This document shows, piece after piece, positions 31,227 to 51,507 of a DNA stretch of 64,000 nt. The stretch lies in NCBI GenBank assembly GCA_965219325.1, contig OZ244723.1:1130158-1194157 (forward strand). Direction: 5' to 3'. Source of the DNA: Dehalococcoidia bacterium. GTDB lineage: Bacteria; Chloroflexota; Dehalococcoidia; Lucifugimonadales; UBA2962. Positions within the stretch are counted from its first letter, which is position 1. Each line of letters starts with the position of its first letter. The notes under the pieces were generated by a model that saw only the letters and a program-made list of their open reading frames with translations, did not search any database and was not told the origin of the DNA. The position numbers and the translations under genes were made by a program.

Positions 31227-32306
31227 CGGTCCTTCCGGAAGACGGCTGCAAGCTCCCTCCTACGGGGATGTCCGGGGCCGTCCGATATCCCCAGGCAGGA
31301 CGGTATGCGGAACGCAAGCTCACGCGGTCAGCCCGTCCCGGAGTCCTGTGGGAGGCCGCCGCTCTGCTTGTCGGAGGGCTGGGGCGGCCTCCCCCAGCTT
31401 CATCCATGTGTGCGGGCTTTCTTGTTGCCCTTCCTGCGGGCGGGGTCCGCGCGGGTACGCGTACACCCGCGCGGACCTTCCTCTCCTCCCGACGCCACAT
31501 GCCATCAGGAATTATCCGGCGGATCGGGCCCTTCCACGCATGGCCCCTCACCGAGTTCGTTGACCGCCGCCACACCGAATTTGACGGGTCCCACATAGAC
31601 GATCTTGAAGTATTTGAAACCCGTCGGGGTGCCGTCGGGGTGCTCTGGTGGCGTGGTGGATCCAGGGTGCTCCACCTCGTATTCGTCCAGCAGGTAGCCG
31701 CCGCAGCCCTCGCTGGCTGAGCCGTAGATGCGGAACTCCGTGATCCATTGCGCGCCGGTTCCGGTCTCGTCCGGCGCGTCCCACGACACGATTTGCCCAC
31801 CAATGCCGCTGACGGGCGAGTAGGACACAGACACATTGCGGACCGCGCCCGGGATCTCCGAGGGGCCCAGACCACCGGGCGGAACGGCAACTGCCAGCAA
31901 AATTTCACGCACCGACAGCGTGTAGGTGCCTGGGTCCAAGCCCGCTACTTCCAGGTGGTAGATGCCGGTCGCGGTCGCCGTGTAGGTCAGTCGGCTGTTA
32001 AGTCCCTCGCCGCCGTCGTCGTCCTCACTGATGTAGTGGGAGACGTTGAAGGAGTCGCCGTAGAGCGCCAGGATCGGGTCCGCCTGGGAGCCGCGGCCGG
32101 TGTCCGCGCCCTCCAGGTCGAACCGGTATCGCTTGCCCGCCTCCAGATTGACACGGAACCCGTCCAAATCCTCGCCAGGGTCGATGTTGCCCGTGGCCGA
32201 GGCCCCGACCTCGACCCGGCCGGTGGTGGTGGTGTCTCTGGGAAAGTCCGTGTCGGCCTCCGAGGCGCCGTTCGCGCCCAGCACGATCACCGACAGCGTG
32301 TAGGTG
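31197..32306. repeat. about 1.1-kb near-identical direct repeat, copy 1 (HTH 5' end, 279-bp spacer, last 267 codons of the giant gene)
   Basis: Matches 40309..41418 at a constant offset of 9112 nt, with only a handful of mismatches read by eye. Confidence 0.85.
31444..31477 (-). terminator. 12-bp GC hairpin GGTCCGCGCGGG / CCCGCGCGGACC 30 nt downstream of the giant gene 1 stop; identical copy at 40556..40589
   Basis: Perfect inverted repeat read directly. There is no clear U-tract, so terminator function is uncertain. Confidence 0.4.
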
Positions 32307-35300: not shown

Positions 35301-38300
35301 GACGCCGTGTAGGTGACCGTGCCCGAGGCGAAGGCCGGGCTCAGCGTCACCCCCGTGCCCAGCGACAGCCCGCTCAGCGTCGTTGGGCCGGTCGAGAGAG
35401 GTATCGCTTCGGTGCGCTGTTTGCCGTAAACGAGCATCTTCACCACCCAATTCTCGCCACTCCAGTTTGTTCCGTCCCTGGACTTCTGTGACTCATTGGC
35501 CACAAAGATGTTACTGTTCCCATCCTGGTCGTTGCTTGCTGTGTTCCGGAGTCGTATCCAACCGCCACTGAGACGTTGGATTACGATCGCATATCTCCCC
35601 TGTGGTCTGAGCGTCGTTCCTTCCGGCGCCGTGAATGCGTTGTCATGGCCTTCCCTGAACGCCGGTGGATCGCGAAAGTCGAACAGTTTTTCGTCGGGAA
35701 CCGGATCGCCGCCTCCTTCTTGTTTTCCGGTGTAAAGCGACACGATGATTTCGTCCGGGCTGTCCGGTATACCTGAGTCGGCGGATGCAATGTATTCAAG
35801 GGCCAATGCAACGCTGTGCAGTTTGAAGCCGATGAAGCTGTCAGCCCCCTGGATGACATTAAAACTCTGAGCCCACCAGTTATAGTTGTCTTCACCCACC
35901 TTAAAGTTGTCCTGATCACTCTCACTGGTGGTGTAGGTAAGCCGGTCGAGATCGTAGCCGTGGATCGTGAAGACAGGAATCCGCGTCGGGGTTTGCGTGA
36001 CGGAGTCCGGCCACGGGTCGTCGGGGTTGCTTAGATCCTGGTATCGCACGGCTGAGTTAAGGATCCACCAGTTGCTGTCAACGCGGCTTTGACCGTCCGC
36101 GTCAGTGTTCGTTATGTAATATTCCGTGCTGCCCGAGCCATCTGATTCGATGACCACGAAGTAGACCCTATCGTCGTGCAGGTAAAAGGGCTCGGGCGGA
36201 GTGAAGGTGTTGATTTGGTTGTTACCGTCTTTGAATGCCGATGGATTATCGAACTCGAAATATTTATTATTCGGTCGCCAATCATCATCTCCATCATCAT
36301 TACCACCTGGTCTATACCCGTCCCAAAGAGACACCGTAACGGGAACGACCGGCTTGGCGCTAAACATCAAATCGAGCGCGGTGAGCGCGTAGCCGCCAGT
36401 GTCATCGCCAATCTGAAAACCGACAGCGAAGCTGATTGATCCAACGGTGGTCTGCTCGAAGGTAGTGGTTTGCGTAGTGTTGCCCACCATTGCCGCCGCC
36501 GCCGTCGCCCGGTTGTTGATCGTGCCCGTCGCGGTGGTGTCCGTGGTCAGCGTCGCGTTATTCGGGTTTGAAATCGTCAGCGTGAAGGTCTCGGCGCTCT
36601 CGCTCGCGTCGTCCTCCGTCGTCTGGACCTCGATCGTCCCGGTGGCGGTATTGTCGGCCGCCGCGATGGTCAGCGTGCCGCTCTTCGTCGTGAAGTCCAC
36701 GCCCGAGGTGGCGTCGTCTCCGGTCGCCACCGACGTCGCGTAGTCCACCATCACGTCGCGGCCGCTCACCGCCGACAGCGTCACCACGAACTCCACCGCG
36801 TCACCCTCGGTCGCCGCCGCGTTGGCCACCGTCACGGTCGGCGTCGGGTCGTCGTCCTCGATGGTTCCCTTCGCCGTCGGGTCCGTCTCCAGCTTGGCGT
36901 TCGACGACGGGCTCGACAGCGTCACCGTGAAGGTCTCGTCGCCCTCGTCGGTGGCGTCGTTCACCACCGGCACCGTAAACGTTTCCGTCGTGTCGCCGAT
37001 CGCGACGGTCACCGTCCCCGTCTTCATCGACCCGAGGTCCGCCGCGGCCGCCGTGTCGCCGGTCTTGATCGAGGCCGTCCAGGTCGCCGTCACCTCCTCT
37101 GTGGCCGCTTCCGACAGCGTCACCGTGAATTCCACTTCCCCATCGTTCTCGGCGTCCGAGGCATCCGCGACGCTCAGCGTCCGCGGGCGCCGCACACGAA
37201 TCGTGACGGTGTCCCCCGCAGACCAGCTCAGGCCCGACAGACCCCAAGAGTAGAGGCCGGTGGTGCCTTTCGTGGCACCGCTGAATGCGAACGTGGTGGC
37301 GGCGCCGTCGACCGTGAGCACCAGGCCCGCCTTGTCATCGTCGGTGAGGTCGGCGCTGAGCAAGACGTACAGGGTGCCCGTGAGGGTGGTCCCAGTTGGG
37401 ACTTGGATATAAGCGGCACTGATCGTGTAGTCGTTGTCCCCGACCGAGAACATCGTGGCGTCAGGGTAGCCGGCAAGGCCGCCCGCGCTGAGGCCAGCTC
37501 CATCAGCAAAACCGTGTCCGACAAGCATGTCGGCGCTAGACTTGAGCTCTCCCACCGTCACCACGCCGCACCAGATGTCTCCGGTGTTCAGCGTGCATGG
37601 CGGCGTCGTGATGTCACGCACCGACAGCGTGTAGGTGCCCGTCCCCCCGGTGACCCCGCTAACCGCTACCAGGTAGTAGGTGCCGGCCGCGGTCGGCGTG
37701 TAGACGGTCTGGCTGTCGTAGATGTCGTTAGAGGGGTCGACATCGTCATTCTCGGTGCCGTCAATCTCGGTGCCGGATGAGTCGCGGATATTGAGCAGAT
37801 AAGGGTTTTCCAAGGTGCCGCCGCCGCCACCAATGCCCTTCAGGTCGATCTGGTAGGTCTTGCCCGCCTCCAGATCGACGCGGAACCAGTCATAGTCATT
37901 GGCGATGCCGATGTTGCCCGTGGCCGATGCGCCGACCTCGACGCGGCCAGAGGTCGTGTTGTCGGCGGGAAAGTCCGTGTCGGCCTCCGAGGCGCCGTTC
38001 GCGCCCAGGAGGATCACCGACAGCGTGTAGGTGCCTGTAAGATTGTCATTGATTTCGGTCACCACTGGGTAGAAGTCGCCGGACGCGGCCGGGGTGTAGA
38101 TCATCCGGGCGTTGGCGCCCACGCCGCTGTTGTCGTCGCCCTGTTGGCCGTTGTCACCCTGAAGCTGGCTCCCGATATTGTCGTAGAGGCCCAGGTGCGG
38201 GTCCGCCAGGGTGCCCCGGCCGGTGTCCGCGCCCTCCAGATCCAACTGGTATCGCGTGCCCGCCTCCAGTTCCACTTTGAACCGGTCGTAGTCGCCGACC

Positions 38301-40249
38301 GTCCCGATGTTGCCCGTTACTGTGCCGCCCACCTCGACCTCGCCGGTGGTGGTGTTGTCGTTGGGAAAGTCGTCGCGCGTCACGGTCACCGTGTAGGTCT
38401 GCGTCGAGGTGCCGTCCGCGGCCGTCACCTTCACCTTGATGACGGTGTCGCCCACCGACAGCGCCACCTGGAAGTCGGCCGCATTGTCGTCCGCGTCCGC
38501 GAGCGCATTGCCGTCCGCGTCCTGAATTTCGGAATCGGCGCTGGCGTGGTTCTCCGTCACCGTCACTGTCACCTCGTCGACGCTGTTGGCGACCGACGCC
38601 GTGTAGGTGACCGTGCCCGAGGCGAAGGCCGGGCTCAGCGTCACCCCCGGGCCCAGCGACAGCGCGCTCAGCGTCGCGTCCGTCGAGAGCATGGGCGTGA
38701 TGTCACGCACCGACAGCGTGTAGGTGCCCGTGAGGTTGGCAGCACCAGTGGTGGCCCTGAGGTAGTGGGCGCCGGCCGAGGCCGCAGTGTAGACCATCTG
38801 GCTGTTGAGGTCCGTGCCGCTGTCGTCGTCTACGAGAAGGAAGGTTGCGGACCCGTCATAGAGCGACAGGAACGGGTCTACCAAGGTGCCGCGGCCGGAA
38901 TCCGCCCCTTCCAGGTCGAACTGGTAGGTCTTGCCCGCCTCCAGATCGACGCGGAAATAGTCTTTATCCGATGTGCTGGCGATGTTGCCCGTGGCCGAGG
39001 CCCCGACGTCGACGCGGCCGGTGGTGGTGGCGGTGGCGGGGAAGTCCGTGTCGGCCTCCGAGACGCCGTTTGCGCCCAGCACGATCACCGACAGCGTGTA
39101 GGTGCCGGTCGTGGTGGCTGTGCCGGACGCAGCTATGTAGTAGGTGCCGTCCGCCGTGGGCGTGTAGATAACGCGGCCGTTTTTGCCCACACCGCCATCG
39201 TTGCTCCTCGCACCGGATATCGCCTGTCCTCCCGCATCATACAACCCCCAAAGAAACGGATCCGCCAAGTTGCCGCGGCCGGTATCCGCCCCCTCCACGT
39301 CGAACTGGTATCTCGTGTCCGCCTCCAACTCGACGCGGAACCAGTCGACGTCGGCGTCCCTATCGACGTTCCCCGTGACCGAGCCACCGACGTCCACCTC
39401 GCCGGTGGTGGCGGTGCCTTCGGGCAGGTCTTCGCCGTCGCCCTCCGAGACGTTCGCCCGCCCGCCGGGACCGGGCGGCGTGGCATGGCCGGGCGCTCCG
39501 CCGCCGTCCTCCCCGTCCTGGTCGTCGCCTTCGACGGCCTCCGGCGCGGTCGGCGTGTCGATGTGGAACCAGCGGGAGCGCGGGCTCACCCCGTGCTCGT
39601 TGATGGCCTTGATGCGGTAGGTGTAGGTGGTCTCAGCAACCACTGTGTCGTCGGTATAGGTGGTGGCGGCGGTGCCCGTGTCCGCGACCAATTCTCTGAA
39701 CTCGCCCTTTCTGTCGGTATCCCGGTTACGGCGCAGGATCACGTAGCCGGTGATGGTGTCGTCGCCCGGCTCGTCCCAGGTGAGGACCACCTGGTCGTGG
39801 GTCGCCGTGGCGTCCAGGCCCCTGGGCTTGTCGGGCCGCTCGGGGGCCGCCGGTATGTCGATGTGGAACCAGCGGGAGCGCTCGCTCACCCCGTGCTCGT
39901 TGGTCGCCTTGATGCGGTAGGTGTAGGTAGTATTGGCCTTTACGCTGTCGTCGGTATAGGTGGTCGCCGCCGTCCCAGTGTCCGCCACGAGCTCACTGAA
40001 CTCGCCCCCGGTATCGTTCACGCGGACGCGCCGCAGGATCACGTAGCCGGTGATGGTGTCGTCGCCCGGGTCGTCCCAGGTCAGCACCACCGAGTCGTGG
40101 GTCGCCGTGGCGGAAAGGCCCGTGGGCTTGTCGGGCGCCGAGCCCTCCTGGGCCTGCACCGTGGAGAACAGCAGGGCCATCGCCAGGGCCAGGGCCGCTA
40201 TGGCGGCGAACAGGATGGGGAATCGTCGTCTATCGGTGCGAGTCATCAT
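31505..40249 (-). CDS. giant secreted repeat protein (2914 aa): signal peptide, 2 FN3-like domains, 8 PPC-type repeats in 4 pairs, 3 cadherin-like beta-sandwich repeats, Calx-beta-like repeats, unknown domains, C-terminal FN3-like domain
   Basis: N-terminus MMTRTDRRRFPILFAAIAALALAMALLF..VQAQ. FN3-like P.GL.A.A....V.L.WD.P...ITGY...R. PPC-type D.DWFRV.LEAG..YQFD.EG....GTL.DP.L.LYD......TYTLSV. Calx-like LSVADASDAENDGEVEFTVTLS. Confidence 0.9.
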   Translation of the reverse strand: MMTRTDRRRFPILFAAIAALALAMALLFSTVQAQEGSAPDKPTGLSATATHDSVVLTWDDPGDDTITGYVILRRVRVNDTGGEFSELVADTGTAATTYTDDSVKANTTYTYRIKATNEHGVSERSRWFHIDIPAAPERPDKPRGLDATATHDQVVLTWDEPGDDTITGYVILRRNRDTDRKGEFRELVADTGTAATTYTDDTVVAETTYTYRIKAINEHGVSPRSRWFHIDTPTAPEAVEGDDQDGEDGGGAPGHATPPGPGGRANVSEGDGEDLPEGTATTGEVDVGGSVTGNVDRDADVDWFRVELEADTRYQFDVEGADTGRGNLADPFLWGLYDAGGQAISGARSNDGGVGKNGRVIYTPTADGTYYIAASGTATTTGTYTLSVIVLGANGVSEADTDFPATATTTGRVDVGASATGNIASTSDKDYFRVDLEAGKTYQFDLEGADSGRGTLVDPFLSLYDGSATFLLVDDDSGTDLNSQMVYTAASAGAHYLRATTGAANLTGTYTLSVRDITPMLSTDATLSALSLGPGVTLSPAFASGTVTYTASVANSVDEVTVTVTENHASADSEIQDADGNALADADDNAADFQVALSVGDTVIKVKVTAADGTSTQTYTVTVTRDDFPNDNTTTGEVEVGGTVTGNIGTVGDYDRFKVELEAGTRYQLDLEGADTGRGTLADPHLGLYDNIGSQLQGDNGQQGDDNSGVGANARMIYTPAASGDFYPVVTEINDNLTGTYTLSVILLGANGASEADTDFPADNTTSGRVEVGASATGNIGIANDYDWFRVDLEAGKTYQIDLKGIGGGGGTLENPYLLNIRDSSGTEIDGTENDDVDPSNDIYDSQTVYTPTAAGTYYLVAVSGVTGGTGTYTLSVRDITTPPCTLNTGDIWCGVVTVGELKSSADMLVGHGFADGAGLSAGGLAGYPDATMFSVGDNDYTISAAYIQVPTGTTLTGTLYVLLSADLTDDDKAGLVLTVDGAATTFAFSGATKGTTGLYSWGLSGLSWSAGDTVTIRVRRPRTLSVADASDAENDGEVEFTVTLSEAATEEVTATWTASIKTGDTAAAADLGSMKTGTVTVAIGDTTETFTVPVVNDATDEGDETFTVTLSSPSSNAKLETDPTAKGTIEDDDPTPTVTVANAAATEGDAVEFVVTLSAVSGRDVMVDYATSVATGDDATSGVDFTTKSGTLTIAAADNTATGTIEVQTTEDDASESAETFTLTISNPNNATLTTDTTATGTINNRATAAAAMVGNTTQTTTFEQTTVGSISFAVGFQIGDDTGGYALTALDLMFSAKPVVPVTVSLWDGYRPGGNDDGDDDWRPNNKYFEFDNPSAFKDGNNQINTFTPPEPFYLHDDRVYFVVIESDGSGSTEYYITNTDADGQSRVDSNWWILNSAVRYQDLSNPDDPWPDSVTQTPTRIPVFTIHGYDLDRLTYTTSESDQDNFKVGEDNYNWWAQSFNVIQGADSFIGFKLHSVALALEYIASADSGIPDSPDEIIVSLYTGKQEGGGDPVPDEKLFDFRDPPAFREGHDNAFTAPEGTTLRPQGRYAIVIQRLSGGWIRLRNTASNDQDGNSNIFVANESQKSRDGTNWSGENWVVKMLVYGKQRTEAIPLSTGPTTLSGLSLGTGVTLSPAFASGTVTYTASVANSVDEVTVTPTTNHASATVEILDTDDNELDDADDMEDDFQVALSVGDTVIKVKVTAEDSTATQTYTVTVTRDDFPNDNTTTGEVEVGGSVTGAIKPSTDKDWFKVELEAGTRYQFDVEGADTGRGTLPDPAASLYATSLISGNDDAGVGKNARIINTPTATGTYYVVADSATSDTGTYTVSVIVLGANGASEADTDFPADNTTSGRVEVGASATGNIASTSDKDWFRVDLEAGKTYQFDLEGSPTGRGSLGDPFLQIFDASGSNKLAEDDDISTANLNSQLVFTPTAAGAYYLVVETAAPTTGTYTLSVREITQPPPCTLNTGDIWCGAVTVAEIKTSPADALVGHGFADGAGLSAGSLAGNPDETVFSVGDNDYTIQGAYVQVPTGTTPTGTLYVLLTADLTDDDKAGLLLTVDGAATPFEFSGATKSTTGLYSWGLSGLTWSAGDTVTIRVRPRTLSVADASDAENDGEVEFTVTLSEAAATAVTATWTASIEAGDTAVAADLGATKTGTVTVAIGDTTGTFEVPVVNDATEEGDETFTVTLSSPSSNAKLETDPTATGTIEDDDATALSTDATLSGLSLGMGVTLSPAFASGTAIYTASVANSVDEVTVTPTTNHASATVEILDTDDNELDDADDMEDDFQVALEVGDTVIKVKVTAEDDTSTQTYTVTVTRAAEMTPDDPPDDSGNVPDSVTDLLTNLGQANNLNFAIIVGDFENAQGFTTGSDRYGYFLASISLDVDTVPKTPADVTVSLWSATSDSPPTPDAPVATLTHSTDTWATGVNTFNAPGGTVLDPGTTYFVVQSYSGARAHLTLRVTASGSADDDSTGWSVAGARLTRSHTDLGDWSGESGEYTKFSVSGAAVPAQGVAEGATDLPTNVSEPDGEDLPADTTTTGEVEVGGSVTGNVDRDADVDWFAVELKKGKRYQFDVEGADTGRGNLADPFLWGLYDAGGQAISDARSNDGGVGKNGRVIYTPTADGTYYIAAAGTATMTGTYTLSVIVLGANGASEADTDFPRDTTTTGRVEVGASATGNIDPGEDLDGFRVNLEAGKRYRFDLEGADTGRGSQADPILALYGDSFNVSHYISEDDDGGEGLNSRLTYTATATGIYHLEVAGLDPGTYTLSVREILLAVAVPPGGLGPSEIPGAVRNVSVSYSPVSGIGGQIVSWDAPDETGTGAQWITEFRIYGSASEGCGGYLLDEYEVEHPGSTTPPEHPDGTPTGFKYFKIVYVGPVKFGVAAVNELGEGPCVEGPDPPDNS

Positions 40250-40338
40250 GGTTCCTCCTTGAACCGCACCAGCCGCTCAGGAAAGTCGGCTGGGAAGCCA
40301 GGGGGTCTTCTGCTGTGATAAATGCGCTGTCGCGGCAT
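40246..40338 (-). pseudogene. 30-codon 5' fragment of the small HTH gene, fused to and overlapping the giant gene 1 start
   Basis: MPRQRIYHSRRPPGFPADFPERLVRFKEEP*. Its AAGGAGGAA codons double as the RBS of the ATG at 40249. Confidence 0.7.
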
Positions 40339-41418
40339 CGGTCCTTCCGGAAGACGGCTGCAAGCTCCCTCCTACGGGGATGTCCGGGGCCGTCCGATAT
40401 CCCCAGGCAGGACGGTATGCGGAACGCAAGCTCACGCGGTCAGCCCGTCCCGGAGTCCTGTGGGAGGCCGCCGCTCTGCTTGTCGGAGGGCTGGGGCGGC
40501 CTCCCCCAGCTTTATCCATGTGTGCGGGCTTTCTTGTTGCCCTTCCTGCGGGCGGGGTCCGCGCGGGTACGCGTACACCCGCGCGGACCTTCCTCTCCTC
40601 CCGACGCCACATGCCATCAGGAATTATCCGGCGGATCGGGCCCTTCCACGCATGGCCCCTCACCGAGTTCGTTGACCGCCGCCACACCGAATTTGACGGG
40701 TCCCACATAGACGATCTTGAAGTATTTGAAACCCGTCGGGGTGCCGTCGGGGTGCTCTGGTGGCGTGGTGGATCCAGGGTGCTCCACCTCGTATTCGTCC
40801 AGCAGGTAGCCGCCGCAGCCCTCGCTGGCTGAGCCGTAGATGCGGAACTCCGTGATCCATTGCGCGCCGGTTCCGGTCTCGTCCGGCGCGTCCCACGACA
40901 CGATTTGCCCACCAATGCCGCTGACGGGCGAGTAGGACACAGACACATTGCGGACCGCGCCCGGGATCTCCGAGGGGCCCAGACCACCGGGCGGAACGGC
41001 AACTGCCAGCAAAATTTCACGCACCGACAGCGTGTAGGTGCCTGGGTCCAAGCCCGCTACTTCCAGGTGGTAGATGCCGGTCGCGGTCGCTGTGTAGGTC
41101 AGTCGGCTGTTAAGTCCCTCGCCGCCGTCGTCGTCCTCACTGATGTAGTCGGAGACGTTGAAGGAGTCGCCGTAGAGCGCCAGGATCGGGTCCGCCTGGG
41201 AGCCGCGGCCGGTGTCCGCGCCCTCCAGGTCGAACCGGTATCGCTTGCCCGCCTCCAGATCGACACGGAACCCGTCCAAATCCTCGCCAGGGTCGATGTT
41301 GCCCGTGGCCGAGGCCCCGACCTCGACCCGGCCGGTGGTGGTGGTGTCTCTGGGAAAGTCCGTGTCGGCCTCCGAGGCGCCGTTCGCGCCCAGCACGATC
41401 ACCGACAGCGTGTAGGTG
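40309..41418. repeat. about 1.1-kb near-identical direct repeat, copy 2
   Basis: See 31197..32306. Confidence 0.85.
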
Positions 41419-44400
41419 CCCGTCGTGCTGTCTGCGCCGGCCACAGCTATGTAGTAGGTGCCTTCCGCGTCGGGCGTGTTGATGACCCGGCCGTTCTTCC
41501 CCACACCGCCGTCGTTACTCCTCGCACCGGAGACCGCCTGTCCTCCCGCATCCTGCAACCCCCAAAGATGCGGATCCGCCAAGTTGCCTCGGCCGGTATC
41601 CGCCCCCTCCACGTCGAACTGGTATCGCTTGCCCTTCTTCAGCTCGACCGCGAACCAGTCGACGTCGAGAGCTGGGGCGATTTCGCCCGTGACCGAACCG
41701 CCGACCTCAACTCTACCGGTGGTGGTGATGCCTTCGGGCAGGTCTTCGCCGTCGGGCTCCGAGACGTTGGTGGAATCGGCTGGCGGGTCGGCGGAATCGT
41801 CGGGCGGCGGCGTGATGTCGCGCACCGACAGCGTGTAGGTGCCGGTGTCGGTTTCATCAAAATCTGCCACACGTAGGTAGTACGTGCCAGCCGTGGTCGG
41901 AGTGAATATCCCCCGGCTGTTCGCACCAATACCGCTGTTGACATCATCCAGAAGGTTGTCCTCGGACTCGTCGTAGAGTGTTAGCGCCGGGTCCGCCAGG
42001 GTACCGCGGCCGGTCGGCGCCCCCTCCAGGTCGATCTGGTAGCGCGTGCCCGCCTCCAGGACGACGCGGAAATAGTCTCGGTCGGCGAAGGAGCCGATGT
42101 TGCCCGTGACCGAGGCCCCGACGTCGACCCGGCCGGTGGTGGCGGTGGTGGCGGGCAGGTCCGTGTCGGCCTCCGAGACGCCGTTCGCGCCCAGCACGAT
42201 CACCGACAGCGTGTAGGTGCCTGTCACGCCGTTCGAGGAGGCGACTACGTAGTGAGAGCCGTCCGCGGGCGCCGTGAAGATCCTCCGGGCGTTGTTCCCT
42301 ATGCCGCTGTCAAGCGCGTCGGTGACTACATTGCCCAACGCATCGCGCATCCTGCTAAGAACCGGGTCTGTCAGGGTGCCCCGGTTGGTGTCCGCGCCCT
42401 CCAGGTCGATCTGGTATCGCTTGTCCTTCTTCAGATCGACGCGGAACCAGTCAATGTCGAAGACGCTGTCCATGTTGCCCGTGACCGAGCCGCCGACGTC
42501 GACCTGGCCGGTGGTGGTGTTGTCGGAGGGAAAGTCGTCGGGCGTCGTCGACCCCGACAGACGGACCGTGACCGTGGTCGTCGACGACCAGTCCAGGCCC
42601 GTATTCGCCCAAGAGTAGAGGCCGGTGCTCAATCTACTGGCATCGCTGAGCGCGCGGTCGGTAGTGACGCCGTCGATCTTGAAAACCAGGTTCTCCTTGT
42701 CATCGTCGGAGAGATCGGCGGTGAGCAATAAGAACAGGGAGCCATCGTTGTTGCCCCCTGGGGCTCCGACATAAAGGCCCCTGATCGTGTAGTCGTTGTC
42801 CCCGACCGAGAACATCGTGTCGCCGGGGTTGCCGACAAGACCGCCCGCGCTGAGACTACTGGTATCCGCAAACCCGTGTGAGACAAGCACGTCGGCGCTA
42901 GTCTTGAGCTCTCCCACCGTCACCACGCCGCACCAGAGGTCGCCGATGTTCAGCGTGCACGGTGGCGGGATCTCACGCACCGACAGCGTGTAGGTGCCCG
43001 TCCCCCCGGTCTCTGTCGTACTCGGTTCCAAGGTGTAGGTGCCGGTCGTGGTCGGCGTGTAGACTATCTGACTGTTTTTGTTCGTGCTGCTGATGTTCTC
43101 GTTGAACCCCACGACCGTTACGAATCGGTAGAGTTTTAGGTACGGATTCTCCAGGGTGCCGCGGCCGTTATGCGATCCTTCCAGGTCGAACTGGTAGGTC
43201 TTGCCCGCCTCCAGAGCGACATTGAACAAGTCCGTATCGCCGTTGAACCCGATCGTCCCCGTGACCGAGGCCCCGACGTCGACAGTGCTAACGTTGGTGT
43301 TGGAAAAGTCCGTGTCGGCCTCCGAGGCGCCGTTCGCGCCCAGCACGATCACCGACAGCGTGTAGGTGCCCGTCACGCCGTTCGAGGCGGCGACTACGTA
43401 GTGAGTGCCGTCCGCGGTCGCCGTGAAGATCGTCCGGGCGTTGTTCCCCACGCCGCTGTCATCGTTCTGCGTGCCCGTGATCGTATTGCCCCCCGCATCA
43501 CGCACTGCGTTGATAGTCGGGTCCGACACTGTGCCGCGGCCGGTAGGCGCACCCTCCAGGTCGATCTGGTATCGCGTGGTCTCCTCCAGCTCGACGAGGA
43601 ACCAGTCCGCGTCGCCGACGGACTCGATGTTGCCCGTGACCGAGCCGCCGATGTCGACCTTGCCGGTGGTGGTGGTGCCGGCGGGAAAGTCGTCGGGCGG
43701 CGACAGACGAACCGTAACCGTGGTCGTCGCAGACCAGTCCAGGCCCGACAGACCCCAAGAGTAGAGGCCGGTGGTGCCTTTCGTGGCGCCGCTGAACGCG
43801 AACGTGAGGGTGGTGTCGTCGACCGTGAGCACCAGGCCCGCCTTGTCATCCTCGCTGAGATCGGCGCTGAGCAAGACGTACAGGGTGCCCGTGACGGTGG
43901 ACCCAGTTGGGACTTGGATATAAGCGGCACTGATCGTGTAGTCGTTGTCCCCGACCGAGAACATCGTGTCGTCAGGGTAGCCGGCAAGGCTGCCCGCGCT
44001 GAGGCCAGCTCCATCAGCAAAACCGTGTGCGACAAGCACGTCGGCGTTAGTCTTGACCTCTGCCACCGTCACCACGCCGCACCAGACGTCGCCCGTGTTC
44101 AGCGTACACGGCGGCGGCGTGATGTCACGCACCGACAGCGTGTAGGTGCCGGCCGCGCTATTCGAGGCTGCCACCAGGTAGTAGACGCCGGCCGCGGTCG
44201 GCGTGAAGGTTATCTGGCTTTCGTAGATGTCGTTGTCCGGATCGACGTCGTCATTCTCGGTGCCGCTAATCGCGTTGCCGGATGAGTTGCGGATATTGAG
44301 CAGATAAGGGTCTTCCAAGGTGCCGCCGCCGCTATCTTCGCCCTTCTGGTCGATCTGGTAGGTCTTGCCCGCCTCCAGATCGACCTTGAACCAGTCCGCG

Positions 44401-45662
44401 TCGGTATCGGGGTCGATGTTGCCCGTGACCGAGCCGCCCACGTCCACCTCGCCGATGGTGGCGGTGGTGGCGGGAAAGTCCGTGTCGGCCTCCGAGGCGC
44501 CGTTCGCGCCCAGCAGGATCACCGACAGCGTGTAGGTGCCGGTATCTGACCCATTGGCATTCTGTGCCCGCACGTAGTAGGCGCCGGCCGCGGTCGGCGT
44601 GTAAATCCGCCGGGCGTTTTTGCCCACGCCCTCGTCGTTGCTCAAAGAACCGACAACTGCGTTGCTATAGTAGAGAGCCATCCTCGGGTCCGGTAGGGTA
44701 CCGCGGCTGGTATCCGCACCTTCAAGATCGATCTGGTATCTCGTGCCCGCCTCCAGCACGACCTTGAACCAGTCCCCGTCCGTCCCGGTTCCGATGTTGC
44801 CCGTGACCGAGCCGCCGACGTCCACCTCGCCGGTGGTGGTGTCGTCGGTCGGCAGGTCTTCGCCGTCGGGCTCGGAGACGTTGGCCCGCTTGCCGGGACC
44901 GCCGGGCGCGCCGTCGTCGTCCTCCCCGTCCTGGTCGTCGCCTTCGACGGCCTCCGGCGCGGCCGGCGTGTCGATGTGGAACCAGCGGGAGCGCTCGCTC
45001 ACACCGTGCTCGTTGATCGCCTTGATGCGGTAGGTGTAGGTAGTATTGGCCTGTACGCTGTCGTCGGTGTAGGTGGTCGCCGCCGCCCCCGTGTCCGCCA
45101 CCAGCACACTGAACTCGCCCCCGGTATCGTTCACGCGGACGCGCCGCAGGATGACGTAGCCGGTGATGGTGTCGTCGTCAGGGTCGTCCCAGGTGAGGAC
45201 CACCTGGTCGTGGGTCGCCGTGGCGTCCAGGCCCGTGGGCTTGTCGGGCCGCTCGGGGGCCGCCGGAATGTCGATGTGGGACCAGCGCGAGCGTTCGCTC
45301 ACCCCGTGCTCGTTGATCGCCTTGATGCGGTAGGTGTAGGTAGTGTTGGCCTTTACGGTAGCGTCGGTGTAGGTGGTCGCCGCTGTGCCCGTGTCCGCCA
45401 CGAGCTCACTGAACTCGCCCCCGGTATTGTTCACGCGCACGCGCCGCAGGATGACGTAGCCGGTGATGCTGGCGTCGCCCGGGTCGTCCCAGGTGAGGAC
45501 CACCTGGTCGTGGGTCGCCGTGGCGGAGAGGCCCGTGGGCTTGTCGGGCACCGAGCCCTCCTGGGCCTGGACCGGAGAGAACAGCAGGGTCATCGCCAGG
45601 GCCAGCGCCGCTATGGCGGCAATCAGGATGGGGAATCGTCGTCTATCGGTGCGAGTCATCAT
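40617..45662 (-). CDS. giant secreted repeat protein (1681 aa): signal peptide, 2 FN3-like domains, 8 PPC-type repeats in 4 pairs, two copies of the CTLNxGDxWCG domain, C-terminal FN3-like domain
   Basis: The first roughly 270 aa and last roughly 270 aa are highly similar or near-identical to giant protein 1. It has the same RBS context, AAGGAGGAACCATGATG. Confidence 0.9.
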   Translation of the reverse strand: MMTRTDRRRFPILIAAIAALALAMTLLFSPVQAQEGSVPDKPTGLSATATHDQVVLTWDDPGDASITGYVILRRVRVNNTGGEFSELVADTGTAATTYTDATVKANTTYTYRIKAINEHGVSERSRWSHIDIPAAPERPDKPTGLDATATHDQVVLTWDDPDDDTITGYVILRRVRVNDTGGEFSVLVADTGAAATTYTDDSVQANTTYTYRIKAINEHGVSERSRWFHIDTPAAPEAVEGDDQDGEDDDGAPGGPGKRANVSEPDGEDLPTDDTTTGEVDVGGSVTGNIGTGTDGDWFKVVLEAGTRYQIDLEGADTSRGTLPDPRMALYYSNAVVGSLSNDEGVGKNARRIYTPTAAGAYYVRAQNANGSDTGTYTLSVILLGANGASEADTDFPATTATIGEVDVGGSVTGNIDPDTDADWFKVDLEAGKTYQIDQKGEDSGGGTLEDPYLLNIRNSSGNAISGTENDDVDPDNDIYESQITFTPTAAGVYYLVAASNSAAGTYTLSVRDITPPPCTLNTGDVWCGVVTVAEVKTNADVLVAHGFADGAGLSAGSLAGYPDDTMFSVGDNDYTISAAYIQVPTGSTVTGTLYVLLSADLSEDDKAGLVLTVDDTTLTFAFSGATKGTTGLYSWGLSGLDWSATTTVTVRLSPPDDFPAGTTTTGKVDIGGSVTGNIESVGDADWFLVELEETTRYQIDLEGAPTGRGTVSDPTINAVRDAGGNTITGTQNDDSGVGNNARTIFTATADGTHYVVAASNGVTGTYTLSVIVLGANGASEADTDFSNTNVSTVDVGASVTGTIGFNGDTDLFNVALEAGKTYQFDLEGSHNGRGTLENPYLKLYRFVTVVGFNENISSTNKNSQIVYTPTTTGTYTLEPSTTETGGTGTYTLSVREIPPPCTLNIGDLWCGVVTVGELKTSADVLVSHGFADTSSLSAGGLVGNPGDTMFSVGDNDYTIRGLYVGAPGGNNDGSLFLLLTADLSDDDKENLVFKIDGVTTDRALSDASRLSTGLYSWANTGLDWSSTTTVTVRLSGSTTPDDFPSDNTTTGQVDVGGSVTGNMDSVFDIDWFRVDLKKDKRYQIDLEGADTNRGTLTDPVLSRMRDALGNVVTDALDSGIGNNARRIFTAPADGSHYVVASSNGVTGTYTLSVIVLGANGVSEADTDLPATTATTGRVDVGASVTGNIGSFADRDYFRVVLEAGTRYQIDLEGAPTGRGTLADPALTLYDESEDNLLDDVNSGIGANSRGIFTPTTAGTYYLRVADFDETDTGTYTLSVRDITPPPDDSADPPADSTNVSEPDGEDLPEGITTTGRVEVGGSVTGEIAPALDVDWFAVELKKGKRYQFDVEGADTGRGNLADPHLWGLQDAGGQAVSGARSNDGGVGKNGRVINTPDAEGTYYIAVAGADSTTGTYTLSVIVLGANGASEADTDFPRDTTTTGRVEVGASATGNIDPGEDLDGFRVDLEAGKRYRFDLEGADTGRGSQADPILALYGDSFNVSDYISEDDDGGEGLNSRLTYTATATGIYHLEVAGLDPGTYTLSVREILLAVAVPPGGLGPSEIPGAVRNVSVSYSPVSGIGGQIVSWDAPDETGTGAQWITEFRIYGSASEGCGGYLLDEYEVEHPGSTTPPEHPDGTPTGFKYFKIVYVGPVKFGVAAVNELGEGPCVEGPDPPDNS

Positions 45663-45923
45663 GGTTCCTCCTTGTGCTTGTGCGGGGATACGGGACGCAG
45701 CCCGTCCCGTCCCCAGGCGTCAGCGGACGCGGAGGACGCGGGCGTCGGGCGTTGCATGGTCGAAGGCTGTTTCGGGTGAGTGCGGGACGTGCGAAGCCCG
45801 CCGCAAGGCGTCCTTCAAGGACACTGAGAACTTCGGGCGCACGCAGAGAGAGCGGCGATGGGAGAGGATCGGGCCTGCCGGTATGAGCCGGAGGCGGCGA
45901 GGGGGCCAGAGCGGAGGGAAATC

Positions 45924-45936
45924 GGGGGGGGGGGGG
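45924..45936. repeat. homopolymeric G13 (C13 on the minus strand) tract in the divergent intergenic region
   Basis: Read directly. Lies 262 nt upstream of the giant gene 2 ATG and 324 nt upstream of the kinase-regulator ATG. Confidence 0.9.
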
Positions 45937-46139
45937 TGAACGTCTGTGCTAGACCGCGACGGAGGACGGACCGGGTCGCGGAGACCACGTCAACACGGGC
46001 CGCTGCGACCAGTTTCTCCACTCCGTCTATCGGCCTGTCGAATCCCACGTTAAACCCTCCCCGCCGTACGTTGGGGCAAAGTGCCCATCAGTATGACGGA
46101 CAAAGTTGTGGAAAGTCAGTGTAATATCTGCATTTTAGC

Positions 46140-46158
46140 GACCAATCGAGGACCAATC
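46140..46158 (+). promoter_or_regulatory. direct repeat GACCAATC-N3-GACCAATC (11-bp phasing), candidate OmpR/PhoB-type response-regulator box
   Basis: Two perfect 8-mers at 46140-46147 and 46151-46158, 4 nt upstream of a -35-like hexamer. Confidence 0.4.
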
Positions 46159-46162
46159 CTGC

Positions 46163-46192
46163 TTGTGTAATGTGCCGTATGGCCTCTATAAT
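46163..46192 (+). promoter_or_regulatory. sigma-70-like promoter candidate for 46260..48641
   Basis: TTGTGT (46163-46168), an 18-nt spacer, then TATAAT (46187-46192), about 68 nt upstream of the ATG. Confidence 0.4.
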
Positions 46193-46259
46193 GGGCGCGC
46201 CGGGCCGTGTGGGACTAGGGGGGCCGCGGGCCGTCCATGCCTGAACGGAGGTCGAGAGG

Positions 46260-48641
46260 ATGAAGAACGCCGGGGAGCTTGAGCGGGAGAACGAGGCCCT
46301 TCGCGACCGCCTCTCCAGGCTGAGCCAGGCCAGCCTGCGCATCAACGAGAGCCTGGACTTCGATGGCGTCCTTCAGGAGGTGGTGGACAGCGCCCGCGCC
46401 ATCACGGACGCCCGCTTCGGAGGGCTCACCACCGTGGACGGCTCGGGGCAGCTGGAGAGTTTCCTGAGCTCCGGCCTGACGCCCGAGCAACACGAGGCGC
46501 TGTACACCCCGGAGGGTCCGGCCATCTACGACCTCTTCCTGAATATGAAAGAGCCGCTGCGAGTCGACGACCTCACCGCCTACGTCAAGTCACTCGGCTA
46601 CCCCGGCAACTCGGCGTATCTGAAGAGCTTTCTGGGGACGCCGATCCTGCATCGCGGCGTGCCCGTTGGCCTGTGCTGTGTCGCCAACAAAGAGGGTGGG
46701 GGCGGGTTCACCCCCGAGGACGAGGCGACCCTGGTGATGTTCGCCTCCCAGGCGGCGCTGGTCATCGCCAACGCCCGCAGGCACCGGGAGGAGCAGCGGG
46801 CCAGGACCGACCTGGAGACCCTGGTGAACACCACACCTGTGGGCGTCTTGGTGTTCGACGCCAAGACGGGCGGCGTGACGTCGGTCAACCGGGAGGCCAG
46901 GAGGATCGTCAGCGACCTGTGTGCGCCCGGCGGCTCGGCGGAGCAGCTGCTGGAGGTGCTGACCTTCCGGCGGTTCGACGGGAGGGATGTCTCTCTGGAG
47001 GAGTTCCCCCTGGCCCTGGCGCTGAGCACGGGGGAGACGGTGCGAGCGGAGGAGATCGTCCTGCAGGGTCCCGAGGGTCGCAGCGTCACCACCCTGATCA
47101 ACGCCACGCCCATCTTCTCCGAGGAGGGCGAGGTCGAGTCGGTGGTCGTGACCCTACAGGACATGACGCCGATGGAGGAGCTTGAGCGGCTGCGGGCCGA
47201 GTTCCTGGGCATGGTGAGCCACGAGTTGCGGACGCCCCTGGCCGCCGTCAAGGGATCGGTGGATACCCTTCTGGAATCCGCCTCCGACCTGGACTCTGCC
47301 GAGATGACGCAGTTCTTCAGGATCATCCGCGACCAGTCGGAGAACATGCGTTACCTGATAGGCGACCTGCTGGACGTGGCCCGCATCGAGACGGGCACCC
47401 TGCCGGTTTCCCCCGAACCCGTAGAGGCGGGCGTCCTGGTGGACGAGGCCAGGAGCAGGTTCCAGAGCGGGGGCGGAAGGAGCAACCTCGTTATCGACCT
47501 GCCGCCGGATCTGCCCCGGGTCATGGCGGACCGGCGGCGCATCGTCCAGGCACTGGGCAACCTGCTCTCCAACGCGGCCCACCACTCGAACGAACTGTCC
47601 CCCATCCGGGTGGCCGCAGTGCGGGATGGCGTCCACGTCGCCTTCTCGGTGGCGGACGACGGCGTGGGCGTGCCCGCCGAGCGGCTGCCGCACCTGTTCC
47701 GCAAGTTCTCCCGGCTCGACGGCGAGGAGCGGGGACGTGAGATAGCCGGGTCGGGCCTGGGACTCGCCATCTGCAAGGGGATCGTGGAGGCCCACGGCGG
47801 CCGCATTCGGGCCGAGAGCGACGGGCTTGGTCTGGGAAGCCGGTTCACCTTCACCGTTCCGGCGGTGGAGGAGGCCGTCGCCCTTCCCCCTCCACGGTCA
47901 CGCCGGCGCAGGAGCAAGACCGCGGAGCGGCCCCGCGTCCTGTGCGTGGACGACGACCCGCAGACGCTCCGGTACGTGCGGGACGCCCTCACCAAGGCGG
48001 GCTACACGCCCGTCGTGACCGGAGACCCGGAGGAGGTCTCCCGGCTCATGGCGGAGGAAGCGCCCCGCCTGGTCCTGCTGGACATGATGCTGCCGGGCAG
48101 CGACGGCATGGAGCTGATGAAGGACATCCGGGAAGTCTCCGACGTGCCGGTCATCTTCCTGTCCGTCAACGGCCAGGAGGAGGTCGTCGCCCGGGCCTTC
48201 GACATGGGAGCGGCCGACTACGTGGTCAAGCCCTTCTCGCCGACGGAGCTTGCGGCCAGGATCAGGGCGGCCCTGCGCAAGCTGCGCAAGCGCGCGGCGC
48301 CGGAGCTGGCCCAGCCCTCCGAGCCCTACGTGCGTGGAGACCTGACCATCGACTATGCCCAGCGCAGGGTTACGGTGGCCGGCCGCCCGGTCGAGCTCAC
48401 CTACACCGAGTACCGGATGCTGGTCGAGCTTTCGGTGAACGCGGGGCGGGCGCTGACCCACGTGCACCTGCTGCAACGGGTCTGGGGACCGGACAAGGGC
48501 GAAGACACCGGGCCGGTGAGGAACATCGTCAAGAGGCTGCGCCGCAAGCTGGGCGAGGACGCGTCCAACCCGGCCTTCATCTTCGCCGTGCCCAGGGTCG
48601 GCTATCGGATGGAGAAGGGGGAGGGGCAGGAGGATGCGTGA
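46260..48641 (+). CDS. single-polypeptide two-component system: coiled coil, GAF, PAS, HisKA, HATPase_c, REC, OmpR/PhoB-type winged-helix DNA-binding domain
   Basis: H-box FLGMVSHELRTPL, N-box LGNLLSNAAHH, G-boxes VADDGVGV and GSGLGLAICKGIVEAHGG. REC: VLCVDDD...LVLLDMMLPGSDG...KPF. wHTH: ELTYTEYRMLVEL...VRNIVKRLRRKL...VGYRM. No TM segment seen. Confidence 0.9.
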   Translation: MKNAGELERENEALRDRLSRLSQASLRINESLDFDGVLQEVVDSARAITDARFGGLTTVDGSGQLESFLSSGLTPEQHEALYTPEGPAIYDLFLNMKEPLRVDDLTAYVKSLGYPGNSAYLKSFLGTPILHRGVPVGLCCVANKEGGGGFTPEDEATLVMFASQAALVIANARRHREEQRARTDLETLVNTTPVGVLVFDAKTGGVTSVNREARRIVSDLCAPGGSAEQLLEVLTFRRFDGRDVSLEEFPLALALSTGETVRAEEIVLQGPEGRSVTTLINATPIFSEEGEVESVVVTLQDMTPMEELERLRAEFLGMVSHELRTPLAAVKGSVDTLLESASDLDSAEMTQFFRIIRDQSENMRYLIGDLLDVARIETGTLPVSPEPVEAGVLVDEARSRFQSGGGRSNLVIDLPPDLPRVMADRRRIVQALGNLLSNAAHHSNELSPIRVAAVRDGVHVAFSVADDGVGVPAERLPHLFRKFSRLDGEERGREIAGSGLGLAICKGIVEAHGGRIRAESDGLGLGSRFTFTVPAVEEAVALPPPRSRRRRSKTAERPRVLCVDDDPQTLRYVRDALTKAGYTPVVTGDPEEVSRLMAEEAPRLVLLDMMLPGSDGMELMKDIREVSDVPVIFLSVNGQEEVVARAFDMGAADYVVKPFSPTELAARIRAALRKLRKRAAPELAQPSEPYVRGDLTIDYAQRRVTVAGRPVELTYTEYRMLVELSVNAGRALTHVHLLQRVWGPDKGEDTGPVRNIVKRLRRKLGEDASNPAFIFAVPRVGYRMEKGEGQEDA

Positions 48642-51301: not shown

Positions 51302-51507
51302 CTGTCGAAGATCTCAAGTTAAATCCGAATTCAGCCGTTTCTTGAAGGCTTCACTTCACTCACCTAAGTGTAAGGCAGTCTTTAATCATCTCTCTGTTTC
51401 TCGGGTAGCATGGCAGGTGGCCATCTGGAATCTCTTCCCGGTAGTCTCGAGGTCTTGTACAACGTACGCTCCGATACCTCATAATCTGATTGGAGGAACC
51501 ACTAACG

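What the first reader, a model, noticed from the sequence alone, without database searches (positions are those of the whole stretch)
45924..45936. G13 homopolymer in the divergent control region between the giant gene operon and the kinase-regulator gene
A run of 13 G (C13 on the giant-gene strand) lies 262 nt upstream of the giant gene 2 start codon, in the only substantial intergenic region serving the 14-kb gene pair. Long homopolymers in promoter or leader regions of surface-protein genes are classic slipped-strand phase-variation switches. Even in G+C-rich DNA a 13-mer is conspicuous. It may lie in a promoter spacer or a long 5' leader; I cannot tell which.
Basis: partly seen in the sequence, partly recalled or inferred. 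Interest (0 to 1): 0.55.

Follow-up and report, generated by a model that had tools for sequence, protein, structure and literature searches.

The report
Hypervariable poly-G tract upstream of giant gene
The 13-G run is real and is one allele of a poly-G/C tract whose length changes between almost every related copy (9 to 31 bases), in the conserved control region between a sensor-regulator gene and giant secreted-protein genes of uncultured Dehalococcoidia; this is a likely slippage-driven expression switch or dial in a phylum where I found none reported.

Summary
G13 lies exactly at 45924-45936. It is the longest homopolymer in the window (about 0.01-0.03 runs of this length expected). The ~0.6-kb region around it recurs in a family of cassettes in Dehalococcoidia metagenome assemblies. 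Each cassette has a GAF-PAS-kinase-receiver-wHTH gene facing a signal-peptide/FN3-first secreted protein whose body and size (262 to 6856 aa) differ between copies. In 14 of 16 related loci a G tract sits at the same position, between invariant GA(A)AATC and TGAACGTCTGTGCTAG. Lengths are 9, 11, 12, 12, 13, 14, 16, 16, 17, 20, 21, 21, 13+A+9 and 31. Four loci that are 99.8-99.9% identical over 6.7 kb carry G21, G16, G17 and G14. The window's own locus type occurs as G12, G13 and (inferred) G14. Hypermutability is therefore well supported. Any effect on expression is untested. The tract is probably not a core-promoter spacer. A truncated cassette places the leftward promoter in the AT-rich core about 150-190 nt away, so the tract is most likely transcribed as poly-C in a long leader. 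It also lies inside an upstream ORF with a conserved Shine-Dalgarno and start codon, so tract length would set that ORF's frame and stop position. Verdict: new member of the contingency-locus kind; mechanism inferred.

The parts
45924..45936 (.). G13 on the plus strand, C13 on the giant-gene strand: the hypervariable homopolymer
   Evidence: Homologous tracts of 9-31 nt sit at the same position in 13 other loci.
45937..45952 (-). Conserved 16-nt box CTAGCACAGACGTTCA directly upstream of the C tract on the giant-gene strand
   Evidence: Identical or differing at only 1-3 positions, mostly where it abuts the tract, in all tract-bearing loci, although the next 40-60 nt are a swapped mosaic block. 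Single copy in the window.
45918..45923 (-). GATTTC directly downstream of the C tract (GATTTTC in most other loci). It is kept even where the rest of the leader is replaced.
   Evidence: L012 and L013 have a non-homologous 'type B' leader but retain GAAAATC-Gn.
45663..45917 (-). Giant-gene-proximal leader segment (type A). It is C-rich (C:G 52:28 in the first 120 nt) and ends in the Shine-Dalgarno AAGGAGGAA.
   Evidence: 85% mean column identity across loci. No significant covariation.
45815..46048 (-). Upstream ORF of 77 codons with a GTG start. It reads through the box and the C tract (encoding PPPP). With G13 it stops 152 nt before the giant-gene start.
   Evidence: The same start is the called start of a 485-aa secreted protein in L018. 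The peptide sequence is not conserved.
46056..46062 (-). GGGGAGG Shine-Dalgarno-like motif, 7 nt before the upstream ORF start
   Evidence: Invariant in all 15 loci that include this stretch. The 7-nt spacer varies in sequence but not in length, and the start codon is always GTG or TTG.
46090..46119 (-). Candidate leftward promoter: -35 CTGACT (reverse complement of 46114-46119), 18-nt spacer, -10 CATACT (reverse complement of 46090-46095)
   Evidence: By-eye assignment from blocks that are conserved in all but the most divergent or truncated loci (L016-L018). The consensus scan did not find it. Inferred only.
46140..46157 (+). Direct repeats GACCAAT-N4-GACCAAT with an 11-bp period: candidate operator for the OmpR/PhoB-type output domain of the kinase-regulator
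   Evidence: The repeats are conserved while the spacer varies. This is the only perfect match in the window. Binding is not tested.
46163..46192 (+). Candidate kinase-gene promoter: TTGTGT, 18-nt spacer, TATAAT
   Evidence: TATAAT and CTTGTGTAATG are invariant in 13 aligned loci. Inferred only.
46260..48641 (+). Hybrid sensor kinase / response regulator / winged-helix DNA-binding protein (793 aa)
   Evidence: Pfam GAF, PAS, HisKA, HATPase_c, Response_reg and Trans_reg_C. 120 listed homologues at 78-98% identity.
40617..45662 (-). Giant gene 2: secreted protein of 1681 aa with 2 FN3 domains and PPC repeats
31505..40249 (-). Giant gene 1: 2914 aa with FN3, cadherin-like, Calx-beta and PPC domains. 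Its first ~260 nt are 93% identical to gene 2. It has its own Shine-Dalgarno but no tract.

Best explanation
G13 is one allele of a slippage-prone poly(G.C) tract. The tract belongs to a conserved ~0.6-kb divergent control module shared by a multi-copy family of cassettes in uncultured Dehalococcoidia. Each cassette pairs a hybrid kinase-regulator gene with a giant secreted FN3/PPC/cadherin protein gene.

Shown:
- The tract keeps its position between an invariant 16-nt box and GA(A)AATC.
- Its length differs between almost all copies (9-31), even when everything else is identical.

Inferred:
- The leftward promoter lies in the AT-rich core (about 46090-46130).
- The tract is therefore transcribed as poly-C roughly 150-190 nt into a ~420-450-nt leader.
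- It lies inside a short upstream ORF with a conserved GGGGAGG-N7-GTG/TTG start.
- Slippage by one base changes the frame of that ORF and so where ribosomes stop. The three outcomes are: just after the tract; about 57-61 nt before the giant-gene start; or overlapping the giant-gene start. In the window itself the three stops fall at 152 nt before, 57 nt before and 20 nt past the start.
- Slippage also changes the length of the poly-C / poly-Pro run.
- Giant-gene output would then be switched or tuned per copy and per cell lineage, by translational coupling and/or by exposure of a C-rich leader to premature termination.
- The kinase-regulator would supply signal-dependent control at the shared ACCAAT repeats.

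With G13 the window's upstream ORF stops 152 nt short of the giant gene. G12 would give the read-through frame and G14 the -57 frame.
For: - Tract and statistics.
- Same architecture in 14 loci, with tract lengths 9-31.
- L008-L011 are 99.8-99.9% identical over 6.7 kb. There are about nine other variable sites, and the tract is the only site where all four differ (G21/16/17/14).
- L012 has G9 and L013 has G31 at 97% identity.
- Window G13 versus OZ244718.1 G12, inside a 1.3-kb block that is 99.6% identical and in which the tract is the only indel.
- A called ORF (P0121) matching the window leader implies C14.
- No other homopolymer of 8 or more occurs in about 160 kb of related loci.
- Leftward expression signals lie in the AT-rich core. 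L018 keeps only that core plus about 130 nt and uses the conserved start for a 485-aa secreted protein.
- Conserved Shine-Dalgarno, spacer of fixed length but variable sequence, and GTG/TTG start.
- Frame outcomes per locus.
- Precedent for gradual control by a length-variable homopolymer in an mRNA leader: PMC8295292.
Against: - No expression data of any kind exist.
- The promoter assignment is by eye. The consensus scan found no promoter in 45500-46400.
- Substitutions in the upstream ORF show no codon periodicity (10:14:11).
- At least one open frame through the leader is expected by chance in 53-78% of shuffles, so the 'read-through frame' is not evidence of selection.
- RNA folding is not exceptional (z = -1.17) and covariation is negligible.
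- The C-richness after the tract is modest: C:G 1.86 in the window, about the 98th percentile, but only 1.4 in the type B leader.
- Lengths come from HiFi-type assembly consensus and may be off by about one base.
- Some loci may be paralogues rather than the same locus in different strains.
Confidence: 0.5

Rival explanations
1. Bordetella fim-type promoter switch. The 16-nt box is an activator site, the C tract is the spacer, and GATTTT is a weak -10. Tract length would set the activator-to-(-10) distance and turn a second, tract-proximal promoter on or off, giving a ~250-nt 5' UTR.
For: The box, the tract and GATTTTC form an island of conservation. Homology between type A and type B leaders ends right after GATTTTC, and a mosaic block starts 16 nt on the other side. 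Bordetella fim genes form a paralogous surface-protein family. Their promoters combine a conserved fim box with a C-stretch of 7-22 nt under a two-component activator (PMC1891110).
Against: The hexamers are poor: TTCACC and GATTTT together give 7 of 12 matches. In the window the -10-like element is GATTTC, which loses the T at -7. The scan found no promoter. The box does not resemble the ACCAAT repeats. The tract lies 262 nt from the start codon, whereas the cited Bordetella screen treated tracts 21-80 nt upstream as the likeliest promoter tracts. Transcription from the AT-rich core would run through the site anyway.
Confidence: 0.2
2. Functionless mutational hot spot. A homopolymer arose once in the cassette ancestor and now drifts in length because long G.C runs slip. 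Expression of the neighbouring genes is indifferent to it.
For: Lengths span 9-31 with no preferred value or obvious class. The most distant cassette (L017) and one called ORF (P0126) lack the tract. There is no statistical signal for a selected frame or structure.
Against: The run has stayed long, and uninterrupted in 13 of the 14 tracts, across cassettes whose kinases are only 84-96% identical. Only L004 has an interruption. It persists in two non-homologous leader contexts. The immediately flanking 6-7 and 16 nt are the most conserved bases of the region. It is the only run of 8 or more in about 160 kb of loci.
Confidence: 0.2
3. Recombination element. The G-rich strand (GGG-AAATC-G13) forms a G-quadruplex or stalls replication forks. 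This would promote gene conversion or cassette exchange among the many giant-gene copies, as the pilE-linked G4 does in Neisseria gonorrhoeae (that comparison is from my own knowledge).
For: Two module junctions lie within 25 nt of the tract: the type A/B leader swap and the 59- versus 41-nt block. The window and OZ244718.1 share a 99.6% block flanked by diverged sequence. Identical kinases sit next to different downstream genes.
Against: The junctions flank the conserved island rather than fall inside the tract. Mosaicism is not centred on the tract. No silent donor copies or dedicated recombinase are linked to it. G4 formation is not testable here.
Confidence: 0.07
4. Sequencing or assembly artefact at a homopolymer.
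For: Contig names (ctgN_24x_l) suggest long-read metagenome assemblies. L010 shows three 1-nt insertions in short runs, so differences of one base (12 versus 13) could be noise.
Against: The tract is present at the same site in 14 contigs or records drawn from several assemblies, and length differences reach 22 nt.
Confidence: 0.03

Closest known systems
Bordetella pertussis / B. bronchiseptica fim2, fim3, fimX, fimN promoter C-stretches (PMC1891110)
   Same: Both are long poly-C runs on the gene strand upstream of a paralogous family of surface-protein genes. Both sit next to a conserved box. Length differs between paralogues and strains (7-22 in Bordetella, 9-31 here). Both loci are linked to two-component regulation.
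   Different: The Bordetella tract overlaps the functional promoter, close to the start codon. Here it lies 262 nt upstream, with no convincing -10 or -35, and is probably transcribed. The regulator here is a fused kinase-receiver-OmpR-type protein encoded divergently, not BvgAS.
Helicobacter pylori tlpB-hp0102 leader G-repeat targeted by the sRNA RepG (PMC8295292)
   Same: Both are length-variable homopolymers inside a 5' leader (inferred here). In H. pylori, length gives graded rather than on/off output.
   Different: Here the RNA would carry poly-C, not poly-G. No complementary sRNA was sought or is known. The tract here also lies in a putative upstream ORF.
Neisseria and Haemophilus simple-sequence contingency loci, such as the opc and porA promoter poly-C/G tracts (own knowledge)
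   Same: Homopolymer slippage generates heritable, reversible variation in surface-protein expression. Many loci per genome carry such tracts.
   Different: Those tracts sit in promoter spacers or coding regions of small host-adapted proteobacterial genomes. This one is in an uncultured Chloroflexota lineage, in a shared multi-copy control module.
Neisseria gonorrhoeae pilE G4-forming sequence (own knowledge)
   Same: A G-rich element lies upstream of a variable surface-protein gene that has many related copies.
   Different: The pilE element is a fixed G3TG3TTG3TG3 motif, not a length-variable homopolymer. It drives gene conversion, not expression. There is no evidence for that role here.

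Membership tests
Simple-sequence contingency locus (slipped-strand phase or rheostat variation) | Uninterrupted repeat long enough to slip (homopolymer of about 8 or more) | tested here: met
   G13 in the window and 9-31 in homologous loci.
Simple-sequence contingency locus (slipped-strand phase or rheostat variation) | Length polymorphism between very closely related genomes while the flanks stay constant | tested here: met
   L008-L011 are 99.8-99.9% identical over 6.7 kb and carry G21/16/17/14. The window-type locus occurs as G12, G13 and an inferred G14.
Simple-sequence contingency locus (slipped-strand phase or rheostat variation) | Length heterogeneity within one population or clone (individual reads) | not testable with these tools
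   Only assembly consensus sequences are available. L008 and L010 come from one sample (ERZ25072076) but lie on separate contigs.
Simple-sequence contingency locus (slipped-strand phase or rheostat variation) | Location in the promoter, leader or 5' coding region of a surface or host-interaction gene | tested here: met
   The tract lies 262 nt upstream of a signal-peptide FN3/PPC giant protein. The same arrangement holds in 13 other loci.
Simple-sequence contingency locus (slipped-strand phase or rheostat variation) | Tract length changes expression of the linked gene | not testable with these tools
   This needs reporters, metatranscriptomes or proteomics.
Bordetella fim-type promoter (box, C-stretch, -10) | Functional -10 immediately downstream of the tract, and a transcription start just beyond it | tested here: inconclusive
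   Only GATTTT is present (GATTTC in the window). No consensus promoter was detected.
Bordetella fim-type promoter (box, C-stretch, -10) | Activator-binding box directly upstream of the tract | tested here: inconclusive
   A conserved 16-nt box exists. It is unlike the candidate ACCAAT operator. Binding cannot be tested.
Leader homopolymer targeted by an sRNA (H. pylori tlpB/RepG type) | Tract lies within the transcribed 5' leader | tested here: inconclusive
   This is inferred from L018 and from conserved expression signals in the AT-rich core. No start-site data exist.
Leader homopolymer targeted by an sRNA (H. pylori tlpB/RepG type) | A trans-acting RNA complementary to the tract | not tested
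   No search for G-rich sRNAs was possible without the genome. Rfam found nothing in 45400-46500.

The most novel reading that the evidence does not exclude
The poly-C tract is a three-state frame switch inside a translated leader ORF. Tract length modulo 3 decides whether ribosomes stop right after the tract, about 60 nt short of the giant gene, or on top of its start codon. This would couple DNA slippage to translational coupling or Rho-type polarity on a C-rich leader, and the number of prolines would add a stalling dial. Repeated across many cassettes per genome, each under its own fused kinase-regulator, this would give combinatorial, heritable variation of giant surface proteins in an uncultured Chloroflexota lineage.
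Probability: 0.2. Interest if true: 0.8.

Novelty: new member of a known kind. Interest (0 to 1): 0.6.

Why it matters
Slippage-driven contingency loci are known almost entirely from host-adapted pathogens and commensals. A full-text search for phase variation, homopolymeric and Chloroflexi returned nothing relevant, and none is known to me in that phylum.

This tract is a clear candidate in uncultured Dehalococcoidia. It is embedded in a reusable control module (sensor-regulator, operator, leader) that is attached to many different giant adhesin-like proteins.

If tract length controls expression, these organisms vary their surface by two routes: exchanging giant-gene bodies and switching each copy. 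That is what would be expected of bacteria living with a host or under phage or grazer pressure.

The idea is directly testable from existing long-read data and metatranscriptomes.

Tried and rejected
1. Rfam search of 45400-46500: only a sub-threshold chance hit to a viral RNA.
2. Sigma-70 and terminator consensus scan: nothing found. Promoter positions in this report are therefore by-eye inferences.
3. Exact-protein look-up of the window's kinase: not on record.
4. JGI metagenome scan with an invariant 19-mer: two chance hits in unrelated AT-rich DNA.
5. Conserved RNA structure in either half of the leader: MFE z-score -1.17. The RNAalifold covariation term was +2.88 in one half and -1.88 in the other, with 1 and 3 compensatory pairs. 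This is not convincing.
6. The idea that one frame is kept open from the tract to the giant-gene start by selection: rejected as evidence. 53-78% of dinucleotide shuffles also have at least one open frame.
7. Coding constraint on the upstream ORF peptide: none. Variable sites fall 10:14:11 across codon positions.
8. The type B leader as an inversion of type A (an invertible promoter): no reverse-strand match.
9. ECF-type or sigma-54-type promoter readings of the box: the required downstream or upstream elements are not conserved (by eye).
10. Strong rut-like C>G bias: it weakens once the tract itself is excluded (1.86 in the window, 1.4 in type B).

Full report
**Observation.** The plus strand reads GGAGGGAAATC-G13-TGAACGTCTGTGCTAG, with the G run at 45924-45936. 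It is the longest homopolymer in the 64-kb window. The next longest are G10 and G8, and no C run exceeds 6. An independent-base model expects 0.03 runs of 13 or more; a first-order Markov model expects 0.009. The tract lies in the 597-nt gap between two genes:
- Giant gene 2 (40617-45662, minus strand; 1681 aa; signal peptide, two FN3 domains, PPC repeats).
- A 793-aa GAF-PAS-HisKA-HATPase-REC-Trans_reg_C protein (46260-48641, plus strand).

The stated 262-nt distance is correct. The claim that this is the only substantial intergenic region is not. The two giant genes are separated by 367 nt, and each is followed by the same 34-nt GC hairpin. Gene 1 therefore may not be co-transcribed with gene 2.

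**Relatives.** A genome scan with the left flank found OZ244718.1, a 3.15-Mb Dehalococcoidia MAG chromosome.
- It is 99.6% identical to the window over 45548-46850 and much more diverged on both sides.
- The only indel in that block is at the tract: ATC-G13-TG-AACG in the window versus ATC-G12-AACG in OZ244718.1.
- The kinase has at least 120 homologues of 78-98% identity, almost all from ENA long-read metagenome assemblies, and some contigs carry two copies.
- Twelve exact-protein look-ups returned 16 further loci.
- A JGI metagenome scan gave only chance hits.

**A cassette family.** In most informative loci the kinase gene faces a gene that begins with the same signal peptide and FN3 domain. 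The body of that gene differs between loci: 588 to 6856 aa, built from LRR, cadherin, Calx-beta, CARDB, S8 peptidase or PPC domains. The ~0.6-kb intergenic region is 79-88% identical by column. Transposase, integrase and recombinase genes are common nearby. The window itself carries a serine recombinase and a DDE transposase downstream.

**The tract across the family.** A G run occupies the same position in 14 of 16 informative loci:

| Locus | Tract |
|---|---|
| window | G13 |
| L001 (OZ244718.1) | G12 |
| L002 | G12 |
| L003 | G16 |
| L004 | G13-A-G9 |
| L005 | G20 |
| L008 | G21 |
| L009 | G16 |
| L010 | G17 |
| L011 | G14 |
| L012 | G9 |
| L013 | G31 |
| L014 | G21 |
| L015 | G11 |

- L008-L011 encode the identical kinase and are 99.8-99.9% identical over 6.7 kb. 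About nine other sites vary among them, and the tract is the only place where all four differ.
- L012 and L013 are 97% identical but carry G9 and G31.
- A database ORF (P0121) matches the window's leader in another frame and implies C14 for a near-identical locus. Other called ORFs imply about C6, C11, C17 and C20 (these are inferred from translations).
- The most distant cassette (L017; kinase 78% identical; giant gene reduced to an FN3 remnant) lacks both the tract and the adjacent AAAATC.
- L018 lacks the whole segment.
- No other homopolymer of 8 or more occurs in about 160 kb of these loci.

The tract is therefore a position-conserved, length-hypervariable element. One-base differences could be consensus noise in long-read assemblies, since L010 shows 1-nt insertions in short runs. 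The existence of the tract and differences of up to 22 nt cannot be noise.

**Local anatomy.** The tract is flanked by GA(A)AATC and by a 16-nt box (TGAACGTCTGTGCTAG). Together these form an island of conservation.
- On the giant-gene side, L012 and L013 carry a completely different 245-nt 'type B' leader. Homology resumes only at the Shine-Dalgarno and signal peptide.
- On the kinase side, a 59-nt block is replaced by an unrelated 41-nt block in half of the loci.
- Further towards the kinase lie about 130 highly conserved nt and then an AT-rich core.
- The AT-rich core holds GACCAAT-N4-GACCAAT (11-bp period, conserved repeats, variable spacer). This is a plausible site for the OmpR/PhoB-type output domain.
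- It also holds an invariant TTGTGT-N17/18-TATAAT pointing at the kinase gene.

**Where is the giant-gene promoter?** The consensus scan finds nothing in the region, so this is inference.
- On the giant-gene strand the best conserved candidates are CTGACT-N18-CATACT (46119-46090) and a PhoB-like arrangement of repeats, 11 nt and GATATT.
- L018 is informative. It retains only the AT-rich core and the first ~130 nt, then continues into an unrelated 485-aa secreted protein. That protein's called start is a conserved GTG/TTG preceded by an invariant GGGGAGG at a fixed 7-nt distance.
- Leftward transcription and translation signals therefore lie in the core. In full cassettes, that transcript would run through the box and the tract.
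- No intrinsic terminator lies in between.
- I conclude, with moderate confidence, that the tract is transcribed as poly-C about 150-190 nt into a ~420-450-nt leader.

**The upstream ORF.** The conserved start opens an ORF in every locus. In the window it is 45815-46048, 77 codons. It reads through the box and the tract, which encodes a proline run.
- Tract length therefore sets the downstream frame. One frame stops 15-20 nt after the tract. One stops 57-61 nt before the giant-gene start. One runs to a stop overlapping or just past the giant-gene start (+4 to +20).
- All three states occur among the near-identical L008-L011. G21 gives the early stop, G16 the stop at -61, and G17 and G14 the overlap.
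- In the non-homologous type B leader, G9 gives the overlap and G31 the early stop.
- In the window, G13 gives a stop at -152. G12 would give read-through and G14 the -57 frame, which is the frame P0121 shows.

Caveats tested here:
- Substitutions show no codon periodicity.
- An open frame through such C-rich sequence is expected by chance in 53-78% of shuffles.
- No RNA structure is supported by covariation.
- The C>G bias after the tract is only moderate.

The frame-switch model is mechanistically coherent but unproven.

**Comparison with known systems.**
- The closest match in architecture is the Bordetella fim family: a conserved box plus a C-stretch of 7-22 nt in the promoters of paralogous fimbrial genes under two-component control (PMC1891110).
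- The closest match in inferred position is the H. pylori tlpB leader G-repeat, where length gives graded control (PMC8295292).
- Membership of the general class 'simple-sequence contingency locus' is met for tract length, inter-strain polymorphism and gene context. It is untestable here for within-population heterogeneity and for any effect on expression.
- A fim-type promoter reading is not excluded, but it suffers from a poor -10 (GATTTC in the window) and the 262-nt distance.
- Neutral drift, a recombination or G4 role, and artefact are the remaining rivals.

**Verdict.** I class it as a new member of a known kind, in a phylum and gene family where I found none reported in a full-text search and know of none. 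An unproven but testable variant mechanism is attached. Interest is 0.6.

Noticed in passing
window 45248-47482 vs L001; loci L002-L018: The kinase gene, the ~0.6-kb control region and the signal-peptide/FN3 start form a reusable module attached to very different giant-protein bodies (262 to 6856 aa). The module lies next to different downstream genes in different contigs. In L008-L011 the homology ends sharply about 350 nt after the kinase stop (locus position ~6729). Window versus OZ244718.1 is mosaic: a 99.6% core flanked by much more diverged sequence. This suggests duplication or gene conversion of the module.
   Followed up: partly
L012/L013 3409-3650 vs L005 3392-3658: The 245-270 nt between the tract and the giant-gene Shine-Dalgarno exists in two non-homologous versions (type A and type B). 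The giant genes (88.6%) and kinases (97.4%) on either side are homologous. The leader therefore behaves as a discrete swappable module bounded by the tract.
   Followed up: partly
window 31444-31477 and 40556-40589: The same 34-nt GC-rich hairpin (GGTCCGCGCGGGT...ACCCGCGCGGACC) follows each giant gene about 27 nt after its stop codon. It has no T run. It may be a terminator or a processing site, and it casts doubt on a single 14-kb operon.
   Followed up: no
window 39988-40261 vs 45401-45674: The two giant genes share their first ~260 nt plus 12 nt upstream at 93% identity. Gene 1 lacks the leader and the tract.
   Followed up: partly
window 61824-61833 and 58244-58251: G10 lies inside an apparently intact aldo/keto reductase ORF (61083-62159, minus strand; encodes a Pro run). 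G8 lies near the 3' end of a DDE transposase ORF (58128-59543, minus strand). These are the other unusually long G runs in the window. Their variability was not checked.
   Followed up: partly
window 46140-46157: Direct repeats GACCAAT-CGAG-GACCAAT (11-bp period) lie between the divergent candidate promoters. The repeats are conserved and the spacer varies across loci. This is a likely operator for the fused OmpR/PhoB-type domain and the only perfect match in the window.
   Followed up: partly
window 49919-59543: Mobile-element-like genes lie downstream of the kinase: a PIN-domain protein (49919-51301, minus strand), a large serine recombinase (55252-56865, plus strand) and a DDE transposase (58128-59543, minus strand). 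GC content dips to 56% at 50-52 kb.
   Followed up: no
L017 3134-3789; L018 2333-3790: Two derivative cassettes. In L017 the conserved upstream start reads in frame into an FN3 remnant (a deletion removes the tract and the signal peptide). In L018 the same start is fused to an unrelated 485-aa secreted protein with no Pfam match.
   Followed up: partly
L010 ~470, ~1507, ~2629: Three single-base insertions in short C/G runs, relative to three otherwise identical loci, break the giant ORF into pieces. This is either assembly noise at 11x coverage or real pseudogenisation.
   Followed up: no
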